DNA of 64,000 bases from Escherichia phage EC100, in sequence record NC_105587.1. One strand, written 5' to 3'. Positions within the stretch are counted from its first letter, which is position 1; every line of letters begins with the position of its first letter. The translations under genes were made by a program, and so were the position numbers. Below, piece after piece: positions 44,154-57,933 of this stretch. The notes under the pieces are model-generated. The model ran no database searches. It was not told where the DNA came from and was given only the letters and a program-made list of their open reading frames with translations.

Positions 44154-44454
44154 ATAAGAGGGGCTTTCGCCCCCTGATTTAAATCATTTGCCCAGCAGTT
44201 TAAGGATATTTTCCATAATAGTTTGGGCAGATTTTTCACTCTTGCTGGTTTCAGCCAACTTTAAAGCTAGTTCTTCCTGCTGTTTCTGAATATCCGCAGC
44301 AATTTTTTGATCAGCCTCAATACGAGCTTGAAGCTCATCAGTGATAGTGGTAAAGGAAGCAACGATTTCAGCAACGGAACGTGGTTTCTTAGAGAACATA
44401 AAAATATCCTTGATTAGTTAGAGAATTAGTCGATTGTAAGGGGCTTTCGCCCCT
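44154..44454. repeat. two copies of GC hairpin AGGGGCTTTCGCCCCT
   Basis: identical 16-nt palindromic hairpins at ~44158-44173 and ~44439-44454 flanking gene 44184..44399. Confidence 0.6.
44184..44399 (-). CDS. hypothetical protein
   Basis: 71-aa ORF flanked by hairpins. Confidence 0.45.
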   Translation of the reverse strand: MFSKKPRSVAEIVASFTTITDELQARIEADQKIAADIQKQQEELALKLAETSKSEKSAQTIMENILKLLGK

Positions 44455-44463
44455 ATTTATCTG

Positions 44464-44979
44464 TTACTTCGCTTTACGCTTGCGCGCTGGTTTAGCAGAT
44501 TTACGAGCAGAATCACCCGTGAACTTAATGCCTACACCGTAGCACAGAGCACGAACATTATCTTTACTATACTCTACGCCAAAGATATTTGGCTTAACAG
44601 ACCCAAACTGTCCATGAGTATCACGCAATACATCTGCTGTTGGTTTACGCTTCTGGTTAACTGCCTTCTCATAGTCTTTCATAGACATACCATTACGAGA
44701 GAACAACTCAGCCCCAGCGTTGAAGCTCAGGGAAACTGGGACAGATTTGTGGCCGTAATTTTCTACATACATAACCATTTTGTAAGATTTACGGGTGGCA
44801 TTTTTAGCTTTAGGCTTCTGACGAATCGGAGCCGGATTATTCAGTGCTTGCGCAGCCTGAGCATCGGTAGGGTGCTTACGCAGGTGGCGTTCCAGACGAG
44901 CTTTGCGATTAGCCTCGGTCTGTGGGAAAGTTTTAACTGTAGTAGCTGCTTGAGTTTTTGCGTTTTTCTGCTTAGCCAT
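44464..44979 (-). CDS. basic protein (possible nucleic-acid binding)
   Basis: 171 aa; Lys/Arg-rich termini. Confidence 0.5.
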   Translation of the reverse strand: MAKQKNAKTQAATTVKTFPQTEANRKARLERHLRKHPTDAQAAQALNNPAPIRQKPKAKNATRKSYKMVMYVENYGHKSVPVSLSFNAGAELFSRNGMSMKDYEKAVNQKRKPTADVLRDTHGQFGSVKPNIFGVEYSKDNVRALCYGVGIKFTGDSARKSAKPARKRKAK

Positions 44980-45017: not shown

Positions 45018-45046
45018 ATTATACGAGAATTTGAAGCGTTTAGCAA
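45018..45046 (-). promoter_or_regulatory. strong sigma70 early promoter
   Basis: TTGCTA/17 bp/TATAAT. Confidence 0.6.
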
Positions 45047-45054
45047 ATGAATTT

Positions 45055-45504
45055 TTAATTTATTAACTGTAAGCTTCTTTTAATTTCAGACCTTACCTGC
45101 ATCAAAAGAACTCCCAAAGTATTATCCCCGATGCCTCGGCAAACACCCCAATATGTATCTCCCCAGGTATTTCCTTCAATCAAAGTTGCATTTTCTGTTG
45201 CTAACAGTTTATCTCTCAAATCAGGGAGTGCAAACTTTAACCGTAAAAGCTCTAGCATTACATCATCTTTTACCTTATCCCAGTCAGAGCGTAGAGTTAA
45301 TTTACGTCCTCTACGTTTAGCAACTCCTGCATTTAGGGAGCGTAGTACATGAGCTACATCATCTTTTTGGTCGGATTTCATAGCCTGAAAAGCATGTTCT
45401 ACAGTATCAGCATGCCATATTTCATTTAGATATTCGAAAGTAATTGGTGATAAATAAAAGTTAGATAAGAAACTATAAGCACCTTTAAATTCAGTAATCT
45501 TCAT
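45055..45504 (-). CDS. NADAR (YbiA-like) domain protein
   Basis: 149 aa; 'FLSNFYLSPI', 'EHAFQAMK', 'AKRRGRK', 'DWDKVKDDVM', 'TWGDTYWG', 'NTLGVLLMQVR' align with E. coli YbiA/NADAR blocks. Confidence 0.8.
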   Translation of the reverse strand: MKITEFKGAYSFLSNFYLSPITFEYLNEIWHADTVEHAFQAMKSDQKDDVAHVLRSLNAGVAKRRGRKLTLRSDWDKVKDDVMLELLRLKFALPDLRDKLLATENATLIEGNTWGDTYWGVCRGIGDNTLGVLLMQVRSEIKRSLQLIN

Positions 45505-45785
45505 TTTTTACGCCCCGCATCTTTGGCCTCTTCGGCTGTATAGATATACTGGTAAGCCCCTTTGGAGTAGGCTGGAGCAGTACACAGTTTCTTACGCTCA
45601 ATCTCTTCTTGAGCTTTTCTTTCGCGTTCAGCTAATTCTTCATCCAGATAAACTAAACGTTGTTCTGGAGGAGGTGGAAGACGTGTTTCTGGCTCACCAA
45701 TATTAGCCTTTCTTATTTGACGAGGTGATTGTGCACGTTTTCTCAATGATTTAAACCCTAGTGAATTTGAGTTATAAATTCGCAT
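45501..45785 (-). CDS. hypothetical protein
   Basis: 94-aa ORF, start/stop-coupled. Confidence 0.45.
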   Translation of the reverse strand: MRIYNSNSLGFKSLRKRAQSPRQIRKANIGEPETRLPPPPEQRLVYLDEELAERERKAQEEIERKKLCTAPAYSKGAYQYIYTAEEAKDAGRKK

Positions 45786-45861
45786 AAAGCCCTCCTCACT
45801 TTCAATACGAATATTATACTAAATTAGAGAGCTTTAAGCAAGAAGATTTTTAATTTATTTA

Positions 45862-46338
45862 TCACATCTCAGCCATTTCAGCTTCAGTAATAACTGTGTT
45901 ACACAAAGCATCTACAGCTTCATTACCACTAATACCAGAATGTCCTTTAACCTTAATAAAGGTAGGATTAGTATTATGAAAGTTGATATACTGCTGTGTT
46001 AATTTAAATGCTTCCTGCCAAAGTTCTAGATTAAGAGGAACTTCACCATCTGCTTTCTTCCAGCCTTTTCTTTGCCAAGAAAACATCCAACTTTCCATAC
46101 CATTTTTGCAATAAGCAGAGTCAGTATAGATAATAATTGGTCTATTATCTTTTTTAACGGACCAACGTAGAGCTTCTACAATAGCCGTGAGTTCCATCTC
46201 ATTATTTGTAGTTTTAGGACTATACCCAGATTTAGAACCTAAACGATCGTCGTTATCATCATAGACAATAAAACCCCAAGCACCTAAACCCGGATTGCCT
46301 TTACATGCACCATCTGTGTAAATGTGGAAAACCGACAT
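45862..46338 (-). CDS. rnh: ribonuclease H
   Basis: 158 aa; 'IYTDGAC', 'NEMEL', 'IYTDS', 'GH..N...D' RNase HI signature. Confidence 0.8.
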   Translation of the reverse strand: MSVFHIYTDGACKGNPGLGAWGFIVYDDNDDRLGSKSGYSPKTTNNEMELTAIVEALRWSVKKDNRPIIIYTDSAYCKNGMESWMFSWQRKGWKKADGEVPLNLELWQEAFKLTQQYINFHNTNPTFIKVKGHSGISGNEAVDALCNTVITEAEMAEM

Positions 46339-46538
46339 TATTTTTCACCTTCTGTTATCTCTTTAGTTTTTGACTGGGTAGGAGACTTGGGTTTTATAGC
46401 CTCTAACTCTCTATCCAGAAATTCCTCTATTGCTCTATCTACAAAATAATCATATGGTAAATGATAATATTCTGATAGAGTAAGAAGTTTGAGTTCTTGC
46501 TTTTCTGTTAAATAAACTTTCTTTCTAAAGAGTCCCAT
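46338..46538 (-). CDS. hypothetical protein
   Basis: 66-aa ORF. Confidence 0.45.
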   Translation of the reverse strand: MGLFRKKVYLTEKQELKLLTLSEYYHLPYDYFVDRAIEEFLDRELEAIKPKSPTQSKTKEITEGEK

Positions 46539-46632: not shown

Positions 46633-47472
46633 TTAAGAGGACATTTTAGCTTTAAGAGCTGGATGAGGATCGTACCCCTCTAAATGGAATGACCAAGCTG
46701 CCGTATTATTTTCTAGTAAGTCGTAAAGATCTACAAACTCTGGCATTACTAGAGTTGGTAAAGAACGAGGTTTACGTTTTACCTGTTCTTCTACCTGTTC
46801 CATATGGTCATTATAGATATGAGTATCACCACCACTAAAGATAAGATAACGAGGTTTTAATCCTGTCAGTTTTGCTAATATATGTGTTAATAAAGCATAA
46901 CTAGCAATATTGAAAGGTAAACCGAGGAAACAATCTACAGAACGTTGTGTCCATTTAAGGTCTAGGTATCCATCGTTACTTACATAGCATTGGAAGCCGT
47001 AGTGACAGGGTGGTAATGCCATCTTATCCAGTTCAGCAACGTTCCATGCAGAAACTAGATGTCTGCGGCCATGAGGATTATTCTTGAGTCCCTCAATAAG
47101 TTCTAGAATCTGATCTCGCCCACCAAAGTTACGCCACTGTTTGCCATATACTGGTCCTAGATTACCCTTATCATACCCCATACTTATAGCTTGGTCTTCA
47201 TAATTTGGAGTCCAGATGGTCCACTGCCCTTCGTCACGACCAAATGTGAATACACGTAGATCATGAAGATTTGTGGAACCAGACAAGAACCATAAAAGTT
47301 CTCCTACTACTGATTTCCAGGCCAGGCGTTTGGTAGTTACAGCTGGGAACCCTTCACGTAGGTCGAACTTAGCATAGGAATCAAAAATTGAAACTGTGCC
47401 TGTTCCTGTACGGTCATTACGGGGTTCACCTAGTAAAATTACATCTGTCAAAATTTTTAAATATTGTTGCAT
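46633..47472 (-). CDS. thy: thymidylate synthase
   Basis: 279 aa; 'LPPCHYGFQCYV' active-site region. Confidence 0.85.
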   Translation of the reverse strand: MQQYLKILTDVILLGEPRNDRTGTGTVSIFDSYAKFDLREGFPAVTTKRLAWKSVVGELLWFLSGSTNLHDLRVFTFGRDEGQWTIWTPNYEDQAISMGYDKGNLGPVYGKQWRNFGGRDQILELIEGLKNNPHGRRHLVSAWNVAELDKMALPPCHYGFQCYVSNDGYLDLKWTQRSVDCFLGLPFNIASYALLTHILAKLTGLKPRYLIFSGGDTHIYNDHMEQVEEQVKRKPRSLPTLVMPEFVDLYDLLENNTAAWSFHLEGYDPHPALKAKMSS

Positions 47473-48005
47473 TAATAAGTAACCAATTCCTGTACAAATC
47501 GCAGGCTGTTATCACTGTTTGCGCCAACTGCATAGACTAATCGGGTGGATTCATAATTATAATCCAGTATCATACTATCTAGGTGTATATCTGCCTCTAG
47601 CTTCTGTTCGCTAAAGATTGTAGATACAAAAGCACTTTCTATATGCCCATGTTGGTACATTTCTAGAAGAAGATTAGCTCCGCCTAGAACTACTGTTTGC
47701 TGATCTTTTAGAAAAGTAGGTAATGTATCACCTATCATTGATATGGGAGTGTAAATATCATGTGTAATATCGTCTGGCAGTGGACGATCAGCACGAATAA
47801 ATAGGTCAGAAGCTCCAATCATACGTTCCCTAACGGCGTATGGAAGAGCTAAATAAGTACCTGCCCCAATAATAATATTATCAGGATTTAGTACATCTAA
47901 TTGTGAATAAAAAGCATCTAGTTCTTCTTTAAAAGAACCCCAGGGAAGCTTACCTCGGAGGCCGAACTCCCCATTCGGCCCAACTGCATATATTGCTGTA
48001 ATCAT
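47472..48005 (-). CDS. frd: dihydrofolate reductase
   Basis: 177 aa; N-terminal 'MITAIYAVGPNGEFGLRGKLPW'; coupled to thy. Confidence 0.75.
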   Translation of the reverse strand: MITAIYAVGPNGEFGLRGKLPWGSFKEELDAFYSQLDVLNPDNIIIGAGTYLALPYAVRERMIGASDLFIRADRPLPDDITHDIYTPISMIGDTLPTFLKDQQTVVLGGANLLLEMYQHGHIESAFVSTIFSEQKLEADIHLDSMILDYNYESTRLVYAVGANSDNSLRFVQELVTY

Positions 48006-55438: not shown

Positions 55439-55601
55439 TCCAGAAAACATGCTTATTGAGCAGTGGAACTTTGGTTATAATGCTGGTGTAGCTACTTGTA
55501 TTGCTAGATTGGATATGCTTATTAAACAAGAAAAGGTACGCCCGGAGGAAGCAATTTTACTCCGAAATATTATCGAAGGATTTAAGCAAGGAATCGTATA
55601 G
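55407..55601 (+). CDS. hypothetical protein
   Basis: 64-aa ORF. Confidence 0.4.
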   Translation: MDFLNQNLKSNPENMLIEQWNFGYNAGVATCIARLDMLIKQEKVRPEEAILLRNIIEGFKQGIV

Positions 55602-56437
55602 TGCGTAGATTAATTATTATTAGCGGTGCGGGTTTGAGTGTTGAAAGTGGTGTACGAGCTTTTCGTACTGATACTGCTAGTGGTAAAGCATTGTGGGATG
55701 ATTATGACTTAGAAGAGGTATGTAATATTCATGCCTTTCGTGGTAATTTTTATCATAAAACTCATATGTTTTACAACAAGCGTCGTGAAGAGCTAAAAAC
55801 TGTTGAACCCAATCTTGCACACTTGCGTATTGGTGAATGGTATAAGAAATATCCGGGTCAAGTAGTAAACTTGACTACCAACGTTGATGACCTTATTGAG
55901 CGTGCTGGCGTTCCACATAGTGACATTCTGCACATTCATGGGTATTTAAAAGAGGTTGTTGTAGCTGATAGCTACAATAGTAGCAATAAACGAATTATTG
56001 ATATTGGGTATAGCTCTATTGACCCAGATGATTATAAATGGGTTAAACCTAATGTAATCTTCTTCGGGGAACATGCTCCAGCATATGCAGAAATGTACAA
56101 TGTTTTTGATGGTATTACCAGTCAAGATATGATCATTGTGGTTGGTTGCTCTAATCAAGTAATTAACTTCTACTGGGAATTATTCCCTGTTCTTAATCTG
56201 ACTTCTGCAAAACTTATGGTAGTTAACTACTATGATAGTGCTCTAGCGGTGGAACCAGGCTATCAAGGTATGACTCGTAGTGAGATGTACCAATTGGAAG
56301 AACGCGGTATCCCTTACTGGAGTAAAGGTGCGGTAGATGCTTTCAGTGACCCTGGTTTTATTGCTCGTGTAGAAGCCCATTTAGAGGGTAGACCTTATGT
56401 GCCGGAGAGAATGGGGAACAAATATGTCCATAGTTAA
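55601..56437 (+). CDS. Sir2-family (sirtuin-like) NAD-dependent enzyme
   Basis: 278 aa; 'GAGLSVESGVRAFR', 'NVDDL...AG', catalytic-His 'HIHG', 'NVIFFGE'; no Zn-ribbon cysteines. Confidence 0.65.
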   Translation: MRRLIIISGAGLSVESGVRAFRTDTASGKALWDDYDLEEVCNIHAFRGNFYHKTHMFYNKRREELKTVEPNLAHLRIGEWYKKYPGQVVNLTTNVDDLIERAGVPHSDILHIHGYLKEVVVADSYNSSNKRIIDIGYSSIDPDDYKWVKPNVIFFGEHAPAYAEMYNVFDGITSQDMIIVVGCSNQVINFYWELFPVLNLTSAKLMVVNYYDSALAVEPGYQGMTRSEMYQLEERGIPYWSKGAVDAFSDPGFIARVEAHLEGRPYVPERMGNKYVHS

Positions 56438-56606
56438 ATCTGTGTATACACATCCCGATGATATATTTGTATGGGCGGATGGTAGTTGGTGTTATCGATG
56501 TGAGCTATGGGAAATGGACTATAAATCCGATGACTATGGTGTCATATATGTTGATACGGCTGAGTATGATACGTTCTTAGAAAGGAACAAAAATGGAAAT
56601 AAGTAA
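56424..56606 (+). CDS. hypothetical protein
   Basis: ORF trimmed to internal Met. Confidence 0.35.
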   Translation: MSIVKSVYTHPDDIFVWADGSWCYRCELWEMDYKSDDYGVIYVDTAEYDTFLERNKNGNK

Positions 56607-57099
56607 TACTCCAATTATTTTTCTAGACATTGATGGGGTGCTTAATTCGAGCATCTCCCACCATCATGCACCTGATGATGAAAAGATTTTCTTTGGAAGT
56701 GACTGGGTTTTTAAACCACTTCTCAAGGCTTTTCAGGACTTTATTCGTCCTTCTCCAATAATGATTGTTGGGGTATCTTCATGGTTCTCTGTCAAGAATG
56801 AGATGGAGAACGTTCAGATTATGGCCGGATTAGATCTTATCGATCGTTTTCTTGGTACAACGGATTTTACTGGTGGTGGGCTATCTAGAGGTAATTCTGT
56901 TCTTCGCTTCGTTGAAAAGCATAAGCTCAAACATTGGTGTGTGCTGGATGACGCTGGTGCTATGATGTATCAGTATCCAACGGTTATAGTCAACGGTAGA
57001 ACTGGAATAAATCTTCAAGATTTAAGAGCTGTTAGCTATATGTTAGAATTTAGTCCAGATCTTGAAATGTGTAAAGCCCTACAACAATTTAAGGTGTAA
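56593..57099 (+). CDS. HAD-like phosphatase (tentative)
   Basis: 168 aa; 'IIFLDIDGVLNS' DxDGV motif I. Confidence 0.5.
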   Translation: MEISNTPIIFLDIDGVLNSSISHHHAPDDEKIFFGSDWVFKPLLKAFQDFIRPSPIMIVGVSSWFSVKNEMENVQIMAGLDLIDRFLGTTDFTGGGLSRGNSVLRFVEKHKLKHWCVLDDAGAMMYQYPTVIVNGRTGINLQDLRAVSYMLEFSPDLEMCKALQQFKV

Positions 57100-57101
57100 A
57101 T

Positions 57102-57530
57102 ATGTTCAATAATGTATTCTCTAAAGAAGCTAACCCAATATTGGTTAATTTTTGGCGTACTCTTCCAGACAACCTGTACAATGAGGCTATTAATGCTCTG
57201 AAAATATGGTGTGAGAATAATGAAATCTCCTTTGCTTTTAAAGGTGAGATTGAAGAAGCTCCCTGTATTGGTTTAATTGTGCAGGTAGAGGATGGCTTTG
57301 AAGAGATTGTCGGCTGGAAAGAGTTAGATGAAATGGGCTTGGTTTTTGCGTTAAACTATAAGCTGTTTATGCCTAATAAGCACCGTATTGTTGTTAACTA
57401 TAAAACCAGTGAATCTCCGGGCTTTCAAGTTAATGAACATTACGGTTGGTCTTACTCACCGGAAGAAGTAAATGATGGTATACAAAAACTTCGTCGTTTT
57501 GGTTATCAAATTCCGGGTTTAACCGCCTAA
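57102..57530 (+). CDS. hypothetical protein (paralog of next gene)
   Basis: 142 aa; shares 'W.ELDEMGL..ALN..LF' and C-terminal 'G..IPGL' with 57541..57933. Confidence 0.5.
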   Translation: MFNNVFSKEANPILVNFWRTLPDNLYNEAINALKIWCENNEISFAFKGEIEEAPCIGLIVQVEDGFEEIVGWKELDEMGLVFALNYKLFMPNKHRIVVNYKTSESPGFQVNEHYGWSYSPEEVNDGIQKLRRFGYQIPGLTA

Positions 57531-57540
57531 AGGGGGCACA

Positions 57541-57933
57541 ATGGAACAAGTATATTGGCGTCAGATTGATCCTAGTTTGGTGAAGCGTGCGGAGAAGCTG
57601 CTACAACGTTGGTTGGGGGTAAGACAAGCCTCCTTCACTTTTCCGGAGCAGCAAATAGACGATCCCTGTGTTGGTGTTTTCCTATCAGGCTACGCTAGGG
57701 AATGGGAATTGGATTGGAATGAATTGTCTGCTATGGGTTTAATTGTTGCACTAAATTTCTCTTTGTTCCATCCACGTGGTTTGGCCATATGTCGTGTGCC
57801 TGATGACGGTTGTTCGCCCCATCTTTTACAGGTGGAAGATGATATTTGGGAGTACACTCCAGATATTCTCAAAGAAGCCAAAGAACAATTAAACCGTGTT
57901 GGGATCTATGTTCCGGGGCTAAATGATAAATGA
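57541..57933 (+). CDS. hypothetical protein (paralog of previous gene)
   Basis: 130 aa; GGGGG RBS; terminator follows. Confidence 0.5.
   Translation: MEQVYWRQIDPSLVKRAEKLLQRWLGVRQASFTFPEQQIDDPCVGVFLSGYAREWELDWNELSAMGLIVALNFSLFHPRGLAICRVPDDGCSPHLLQVEDDIWEYTPDILKEAKEQLNRVGIYVPGLNDK

What the first reader, a model, noticed from the sequence alone, without database searches (positions are those of the whole stretch)
45055..45504. NADAR-domain protein: candidate reverser of DNA ADP-ribosylation (anti-DarT-type counter-defence)
The 149-aa protein aligns block by block with E. coli YbiA/NADAR (FxSNF, EHxFQA, AKRRGR, DWDKVK, WGDxYWG, LGxLLMQVR). NADAR enzymes have been reported to remove ADP-ribose from guanine bases in DNA and to neutralise DarT-like toxins, and phage NADAR genes have been linked to escape from DarTG-type defence. 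The gene sits in the early region between the exonuclease and RNase H/ThyA block, where it would be expressed in time to protect replicating DNA.
Basis: partly seen in the sequence, partly recalled or inferred. Interest (0 to 1): 0.7.

Follow-up and report, generated by a model that had tools for sequence, protein, structure and literature searches.

The report
Known phage anti-DarTG1 enzyme (AdfN)

Summary

The window is Escherichia phage EC122, a T5-like Tequintavirus. Its NADAR protein is 148/149 identical (only L93I) to bas32_0066 of phage IrisVonRoten (Bas32). Johannesman et al. (Nat Commun 2025) tested that protein as AdfN^Bas32. Expressed ectopically, it neutralised the DarT1 toxin and restored plaquing of RB69, T5 and Bas25 on a DarTG1 host. 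It had no effect on DarTG2.

The catalytic residues E36, K43 and E110 are present. The AlphaFold model (pLDDT 97) matches only the three solved NADAR structures.

The gene is accessory: 94 of 443 T5-like records that match the locus carry it, and T5 itself, which is DarTG1-sensitive, lacks it. It lies between the T5.090 and T5.089 homologues, overlaps the upstream gene's stop (ATGA), and sits behind a conserved early promoter. dN/dS is about 0.05.

Still open: a deletion phenotype in a T5-like phage, the wider substrate range, and a possible relationship to the retron inhibitor of Carabias et al. 2024, which could not be checked.

The parts
45055..45504 (-). adfN-type NADAR gene (149 aa), a guanine-ADP-ribose DNA glycohydrolase. 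Key residues are E36, K43 and E110 (catalytic/ADPr-binding), K63 (equivalent of C7 DarG1 K115 / PnNADAR K75), R67, W75, D116 and W119.
45501..45785 (-). Upstream 94-aa gene, the homologue of T5.090 (function unknown, PHROG 4593). Its stop overlaps the NADAR start (ATGA), so the two are probably co-transcribed and translationally coupled. Its last ~30 codons diverge from T5, which marks the left edge of the inserted module.
   Evidence: (89% identity to T5.090, divergence only at the C-terminus).
45813..45841 (-). Sigma-70-type early promoter (TTGCTT - 17 nt - TATAAT) between RNase H and the T5.090 homologue. It is identical to the promoter annotated in the T5 record and is the likely promoter of the T5.090-homologue/NADAR pair.
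   Evidence: Alignment with T5 and the T5 regulatory annotation. The consensus scan missed it because the -35 hexamer has only 3/6 matches. The link to NADAR transcription is inferred, not shown.
45018..45046 (-). Promoter (TTGCTA - 17 nt - TATAAT) homologous to T5 promoter P-H207. It lies directly downstream of the NADAR stop and drives the next gene (DUF7022, 44464-44979). It marks the right edge of the insertion: identity to T5 resumes at the NADAR stop codon.

Best explanation
The gene encodes an orphan, antitoxin-like NADAR enzyme of the AdfN^Bas32 type. It is probably made early in infection from the conserved promoter upstream of the T5.090 homologue. It binds the ADP-ribose attached by the host DarT1 toxin to the N2 amino group of guanines in phage DNA and hydrolyses the N-glycosidic bond. 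That frees the template so replication can continue on DarTG1-carrying hosts. Shown here: the ORF, the domain, the fold, conserved catalytic residues, 99.3% identity to the tested protein, accessory distribution and purifying selection. Shown by others for the 148/149-identical protein: DarT1 neutralisation, rescue of DarTG1-sensitive phages, and no effect on DarTG2. Inferred: early co-transcription with the upstream gene, and that the gene is what makes EC122-like phages DarTG1-resistant in their native context.
Against: The published tests used ectopic expression; I found no report of a deletion in a T5-like phage. In the text I could read, the evidence for AdfN^Bas32 is in vivo, and I saw no in vitro assay of it. 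The EC122 allele (L93) has not itself been tested. Structurally the protein is closest to E. coli YbiA, which does not protect against DarT1 in vivo.
Confidence: 0.9

Rival explanations
1. The natural target is broader than, or different from, DarT1-modified guanine. As a Glu-type NADAR it could also remove cytidine-ADPr and RNA-linked ADPr laid down by other defence or toxin ADP-ribosyltransferases (YarT-like, pierisin-like). DarTG1 would then be only one of several systems it counters. This rival is compatible with the best explanation rather than exclusive of it.
For: E110 is a glutamate, the hallmark of the YbiA/NADAR families rather than the His of T4 AdfN or the Asp of DarG1. NADAR- and YbiA-family enzymes removed C-ADPr from DNA and RNA, whereas T4 AdfN and the DarG1s did not (PMC12945103). 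Johannesman et al. themselves suggest other ADP-ribosylating defences as targets.
Against: No T5-type AdfN has been tested on C-ADPr or RNA substrates. No anti-phage system that makes C-ADPr is known.
Confidence: 0.25
2. It acts, at least additionally, as a non-enzymatic ADP-ribose-binding inhibitor of an NAD+-consuming defence such as Retron-Eco1, in the way reported for another phage NADAR protein.
For: Johannesman et al. cite Carabias et al. [quoted passage not shown] From my memory of that abstract, the inhibitor is called U56 and binds ADPr. The ADPr-binding residues are intact here.
Against: The Carabias paper is not held, and the identity and source phage of that protein could not be checked. 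No sequence comparison was possible.
Confidence: 0.12
3. It is a housekeeping YbiA-type N-glycosidase that destroys reactive riboflavin-pathway intermediates (COG3236/TIGR02464), as several GenBank annotations imply ('N-glycosidase', 'GTP cyclohydrolase II', 'swarming motility protein').
For: The best solved-structure match is E. coli YbiA. There is a sub-threshold hit to TIGR02464 (66.1 bits). It has a Glu-type active site.
Against: The TIGR02464 score is below the curated cut-off of 73.7. There are no riboflavin genes in the neighbourhood. The closest relatives sit in large phage-like contigs and in PHROG 1017. The near-identical protein has a demonstrated anti-DarT1 phenotype.
Confidence: 0.03
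4. It degrades soluble ADP-ribose-derived immune signals (for example cyclic ADPr isomers) rather than macromolecular adducts, as proposed on contextual grounds for most phage NADARs.
For: Iyer et al. [quoted passage not shown]
Against: That proposal predates the biochemical work. All NADARs tested since act on base-linked ADPr in nucleic acids, and AdfN^Bas32 counters a DNA-modifying toxin.
Confidence: 0.04

Closest known systems
AdfN^Bas32 (anti-DarT factor NADAR of BASEL phages Bas32 IrisVonRoten and Bas33 HildyBeyeler; Johannesman, Awasthi, Carlson & LeRoux, Nat Commun 2025)
   Same: 148/149 identical to the Bas32 protein and 146/149 to the Bas33 protein. Same locus (T5.090 homologue | NADAR | DUF7022 gene), same genus (Tequintavirus), same length.
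   Different: Only L93I. The EC122 allele itself is untested.
AdfN^T4 (T4 gp30.3)
   Same: Phage-encoded orphan NADAR that removes guanine-linked ADP-ribose from DNA and defeats DarTG1.
   Different: 15% identity. T4 has His/Lys where this protein has Glu110, and Gln where this protein has K63. T4 AdfN cannot neutralise DarT1 outside T-even infection, whereas AdfN^Bas32 can. The two were acquired independently.
E. coli YbiA (PDB 2b3w), YbiA family of NADARs
   Different: YbiA does not protect against DarT1 in vivo. It has Ala where this protein has K63. It is chromosomal, lies in a LexA-controlled operon, and is linked to riboflavin damage control. This protein scores below the TIGR02464 cut-off.
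DarG1 (DarT1-associated NADAR antitoxin; E. coli C7, G. lovleyi 8bat)
   Same: Same fold core and the same reaction. It shares the Glu, the Lys and the toxicity-rescue Lys (K115 equivalent = K63).

Membership tests
NADAR superfamily (Pfam PF08719) | Sequence match above the curated gathering score | tested here: met
   78.5 bits against a cut-off of 35.1, E 8.9e-22, profile positions 9-163 of 163.
NADAR superfamily (Pfam PF08719) | YbiA fold: helical core flanked by two small beta-sheets | tested here: met
NADAR superfamily (Pfam PF08719) | Conserved Glu and Lys of the first helix motif (PnNADAR E43/K50; C7 E88/K95) and an acidic or His residue in the last strand (E125/D171) | tested here: met
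   E36, K43 and E110. They are invariant in 50 homologues.
AdfN^Bas32-type phage anti-DarTG1 NADAR | Orthology to the experimentally tested protein | tested here: met
   148/149 identity to bas32_0066 with a syntenic position.
AdfN^Bas32-type phage anti-DarTG1 NADAR | Orphan: encoded by a lytic phage with no cognate DarT toxin next to it | tested here: met
   The neighbours are the T5.090 homologue and the DUF7022 gene. Neither matches a Pfam ADP-ribosyltransferase family at E <= 0.01.
AdfN^Bas32-type phage anti-DarTG1 NADAR | Neutralises DarT1 and restores phage growth on DarTG1 hosts; guanine-specific (no effect on DarTG2) | not testable with these tools
   Shown for the Bas32 protein by ectopic expression (PMC11825919). 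Not done for the EC122 allele or by deletion in a T5-like phage.
YbiA-type riboflavin-intermediate N-glycosidase (NCBIfam TIGR02464) | Score above the equivalog-domain cut-off | tested here: not met
   66.1 bits against a cut-off of 73.7.
YbiA-type riboflavin-intermediate N-glycosidase (NCBIfam TIGR02464) | Fusion to, or neighbourhood with, ribA/ribD or other riboflavin genes | tested here: not met
   Stand-alone 149-aa protein among phage early genes (RNase H, ThyA, DHFR, RNR).
DarG1 (DarT1-associated NADAR antitoxin) | Operon with darT1 | tested here: not met
   No ART gene adjacent.
DarG1 (DarT1-associated NADAR antitoxin) | N-terminal extension of the YbiA core and a catalytic Asp (C7 D171) | tested here: not met
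   The core starts at residue ~2, the protein is 149 aa against 219 aa for 8bat, and Glu110 occupies the Asp position.
DarG1 (DarT1-associated NADAR antitoxin) | Conserved Lys needed for toxicity rescue but not for catalysis (C7 K115 = PnNADAR K75) | tested here: met
   K63 aligns with PnNADAR K75 and is invariant in 50 homologues.
T4-type AdfN (gp30.3 family) | His replacing the conserved Glu of the last strand | tested here: not met
   Glu110. 15% identity to T4 gp30.3.

The most novel reading that the evidence does not exclude
The T5-type AdfN is a bare, Glu-type YbiA-fold NADAR, unlike the His-type T4 enzyme. It may therefore be a multi-target counter-defence. It could remove cytidine- and RNA-linked ADP-ribose as well as G-ADPr. 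It might also bind ADPr to blunt NADase defences such as Retron-Eco1, if the phage NADAR of Carabias et al. 2024 turns out to be a homologue. K63 could be the determinant that lets it work as a free-standing antitoxin. K63 is present here, in PnNADAR, in DarG1 and in a Phapecoctavirus NADAR; it is Ala in E. coli YbiA and Gln in T4 AdfN, both of which fail to rescue uninfected cells.
Probability: 0.25. Interest if true: 0.45.

Novelty: already known. Interest (0 to 1): 0.12.

Why it matters
It confirms that EC122 and about a fifth of sequenced T5-like phages carry a ready-made anti-DarTG1 gene. That is useful for predicting host range and for choosing therapeutic or biocontrol phages. It also allows correction of misleading database names ('GTP cyclohydrolase II', 'swarming motility protein'). 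It adds no new biology beyond Johannesman et al. 2025. The modest open questions are the native deletion phenotype, the substrate breadth of Glu-type phage NADARs, and what makes some NADARs work as antitoxins in vivo.

Tried and rejected
1. Riboflavin N-glycosidase reading. Rejected: TIGR02464 scores below its cut-off, there is no riboflavin context, and the closest relatives are phage-borne.

2. DarG1 membership. Rejected: no darT1, no N-terminal extension, Glu rather than Asp, and PADLOC gave only weak hits to PDC-M42C and Drt5.

3. T4-type AdfN membership. Rejected: 15% identity and Glu rather than His.

4. Identifying the 'other phage NADAR' of Carabias et al. 2024 (the Retron-Eco1 inhibitor). 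Five literature searches and two id look-ups found no held text, so this lead is unresolved.

5. Supplementary files of the Nat Commun paper, to see whether Bas32 itself or a deletion was tested. None are held.

6. Names for the closest non-T5 homologues. The cluster look-up gave no names. Two context look-ups showed phage-like contigs of 150-170 kb.

7. The simple promoter scan missed the promoter upstream of the T5.090 homologue. It was recovered by alignment to the annotated T5 promoter.

8. Testing the K63 correlation on AdfN^Bas60. I could only fetch a Phapecoctavirus NADAR (vB_Ec-G1) whose relationship to Bas60 I did not verify. It has Lys at that position. This is weak evidence.

Full report
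**Observation.** The minus strand of window 45055-45504 carries an ATG-initiated ORF of 149 codons plus a TAA stop. The protein matches Pfam NADAR (PF08719) over nearly the whole profile at E 8.9e-22, 78.5 bits against a gathering score of 35.1. Among solved structures it aligns with E. coli YbiA (2b3w, E 3.2e-15) and the Phytophthora NADAR co-crystallised with ADP-ribose (8bau, E 7.8e-7).

**Source and context.** The window is 100% identical, in the same coordinates, to Escherichia phage EC122 (ON185583.1; Demerecviridae, Tequintavirus; bird faeces, Denmark). The gene lies in the leftward early-gene block:
- RNR, DHFR (47472-48005) and ThyA (46633-47472);
- a 66-aa ORF, then RNase H (45862-46338);
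- a 94-aa T5.090 homologue (45501-45785);
- NADAR (45055-45504);
- a DUF7022 protein (44464-44979) and two small ORFs;
- a T5.087 homologue with an Rv2179c-like 3'-5' exonuclease domain (43176-43877).

GenBank calls the gene 'GTP cyclohydrolase II' in EC122. In sister phages it is called 'swarming motility protein YbiA', 'N-glycosidase', 'DUF1768' or 'NADAR family protein'.

**Identity with a characterised protein.** A tblastn search and then the records themselves show two close matches. The protein is 146/149 identical to bas33_0070 of phage HildyBeyeler (Bas33). It is 148/149 identical (only L93I) to bas32_0066 of phage IrisVonRoten (Bas32), at the same locus.

Johannesman et al. (Nat Commun 2025, PMC11825919; preprint PMC11257639) found this NADAR in Bas32 and Bas33 and named it AdfN^Bas32. 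Ectopic expression neutralised E. coli C7 DarT1 in uninfected cells. It restored RB69, T5 and Bas25 to full titre on a DarTG1 host. It did not help T5 against thymidine-modifying DarTG2. Residue 93 lies in the turn between two helices of the model and is Ile in Bas32, Bas33 and the Epseptimavirus homologue.

Foldseek agrees.

Schuller et al. 2023 (PMC11543638) defined the residues that hold ADP-ribose and are needed for guanine de-ADP-ribosylation. Using the HMMER and MAFFT alignments, and correcting the +2 offset of the 8bau chain numbering, they map as follows (PnNADAR residue, with the E. coli C7 DarG1 equivalent where the paper gives one):

| PnNADAR / C7 DarG1 residue | This protein |
|---|---|
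| E43 / E88 | E36 |
| K50 / K95 | K43 |
| E125 / D171 | E110 |
| K75 / K115 | K63 |
| R79 | R67 |
| W89 | W75 |
| R93 | K79 |
| D130 | D116 |
| W133 | W119 |

E36, K43, K63, E110, D116 and W119 are invariant in the 50-sequence alignment. W75 and K79 are nearly invariant (at least 90%). R67 is not conserved to that level there.

The protein is a bare YbiA core. It has no N-terminal extension like DarG1, and it carries a glutamate in the last strand (YbiA/NADAR type). DarG1 has Asp there and T4 gp30.3 has His.

The most likely mechanism is therefore enzymatic. The protein binds the ADP-ribose adduct on guanine N2 and hydrolyses the N-glycosidic link, which frees the replication template. The fold, the residues and the identity are shown here. 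The activity is shown by others in vivo for the near-identical protein. I did not see an in vitro assay or catalytic mutants of the Bas32-type enzyme in the text available.

**Expression (inferred).** The NADAR start overlaps the stop of the T5.090 homologue (ATGA). Upstream of that gene lies a promoter (TTGCTT-17-TATAAT, window 45841-45813) that is base-for-base conserved with a promoter annotated in T5. Directly after the NADAR stop comes the homologue of T5 promoter P-H207 (45046-45018), which serves the next gene. The two genes therefore probably form one early transcription unit.

**An accessory gene.** T5 itself has T5.090 followed directly by P-H207 and T5.089, with no NADAR. Identity to T5 breaks in the last ~90 nt of the T5.090 homologue and resumes exactly at the NADAR stop codon, so the module is about 530 bp.
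- Of 443 phage records that match the 3-kb locus, 94 carry the gene, at 96-100% DNA identity.
- T5 is DarTG1-sensitive, which is consistent with the absence of the gene.
- Against Bas33, the EC122 and Bas32 alleles show 12-13 synonymous and 2-3 non-synonymous differences, giving dN/dS of 0.04-0.06, which indicates strong purifying selection.
- Other Demerecviridae carry diverged NADARs at different points of the same neighbourhood. Epseptimavirus UTK0009 has a 60%-identical copy directly after RNase H. Vibrio phage phi 3 has a 36-38%-identical copy (depending on the alignment) between PhoH and RNase H. This suggests repeated acquisition.
- The nearest non-T5 relatives (50-60% identity) lie on 150-170 kb contigs with phage-like gene content. 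The family is PHROG 1017, 'unknown function' in v4.

**Rivals.**
- *Housekeeping riboflavin N-glycosidase.* Not supported. TIGR02464 scores 66.1 against a cut-off of 73.7, and there is no riboflavin context.
- *Broader substrate range.* This is open. Glu-type NADAR and YbiA enzymes also remove cytidine-ADPr and act on RNA, whereas T4 AdfN and the DarG1s do not (PMC12945103).
[quoted passage not shown] 2024 on Retron-Eco1. That paper is not held, and I could not establish whether its inhibitor is related to this protein.
- *Soluble ADPr-signal degradation.* The older proposal that phage NADARs mainly degrade soluble ADPr signals has been overtaken by the biochemical data.

**A small extra inference.** E. 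coli YbiA and T4 AdfN both fail to rescue uninfected cells from DarT1. They have Ala and Gln, respectively, at the position of C7 DarG1 K115, a residue needed for rescue but not for catalysis. This protein has Lys there (K63), and so do PnNADAR and a Phapecoctavirus NADAR. The correlation rests on very few proteins, and I did not verify that the Phapecoctavirus protein is related to AdfN^Bas60.

**Verdict.** The remaining unknowns are incremental, so interest is low.

Noticed in passing
window 45055-45504; 44184-44399; 43176-43877: The GenBank product names in EC122 are misleading. The NADAR gene is called 'GTP cyclohydrolase II'. A 71-aa ORF is called 'tail length tape-measure protein'. The T5.087 homologue, which has an Rv2179c-like 3'-5' exonuclease domain and matches the PHROG 255 exonuclease family, is called 'metallopeptidase'.
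   Followed up: partly
L002:3001-3447 (Bas33) versus L006:1504-1950 (Bas32): The paper says Bas32 and Bas33 encode identical NADAR proteins. The RefSeq records differ at two residues (A9T and E104K in Bas33) and at 14 nucleotides.
   Followed up: yes
L004:3989-4438 (Salmonella phage UTK0009); L005:3995-4435 (Vibrio phage phi 3): Other Demerecviridae carry diverged NADAR genes (60% and 36-38% identity) at different insertion points around RNase H. The neighbourhood looks like a hotspot for repeated acquisition of this counter-defence gene.
   Followed up: partly
window 55601-57933 (+ strand): The same early region holds a Sir2-family protein (55601-56437), a HAD_SAK_2 'Swiss-army-knife RNA repair' HAD domain protein (56593-57099) and two DUF7415 proteins. 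This is a conserved T5 block (T5.102-T5.107) with possible NAD+/RNA-repair links. T5 annotates T5.105 as Sir2, but Pfam says HAD_SAK_2.
   Followed up: partly
protein cluster of P0001: The 90%-identity cluster that holds the 149-aa NADAR also lists many 92-94-aa T5.090-like proteins, the product of the overlapping upstream gene. This is either a clustering artefact or is bridged by a fused or read-through gene call somewhere.
   Followed up: no
hits H89, H106; H53: Short records (2-3.5 kb) labelled 'Listeria phage LM 4-14-1 / 4-11-1' carry a 98%-identical copy of this T5-like gene. Klebsiella phage KPP2018 (138 kb) also carries one. The Listeria labels look like mis-assigned or contaminant fragments.
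   Followed up: no
window 46338-46538 versus T5 (L003 4889-5023): EC122 has a 66-aa ORF between ThyA and RNase H that overlaps the RNase H start. T5 has only a promoter in this interval. Bas33 has a longer ORF there (bas33_0067, 93 aa). This is another small variable slot in the same block.
   Followed up: no
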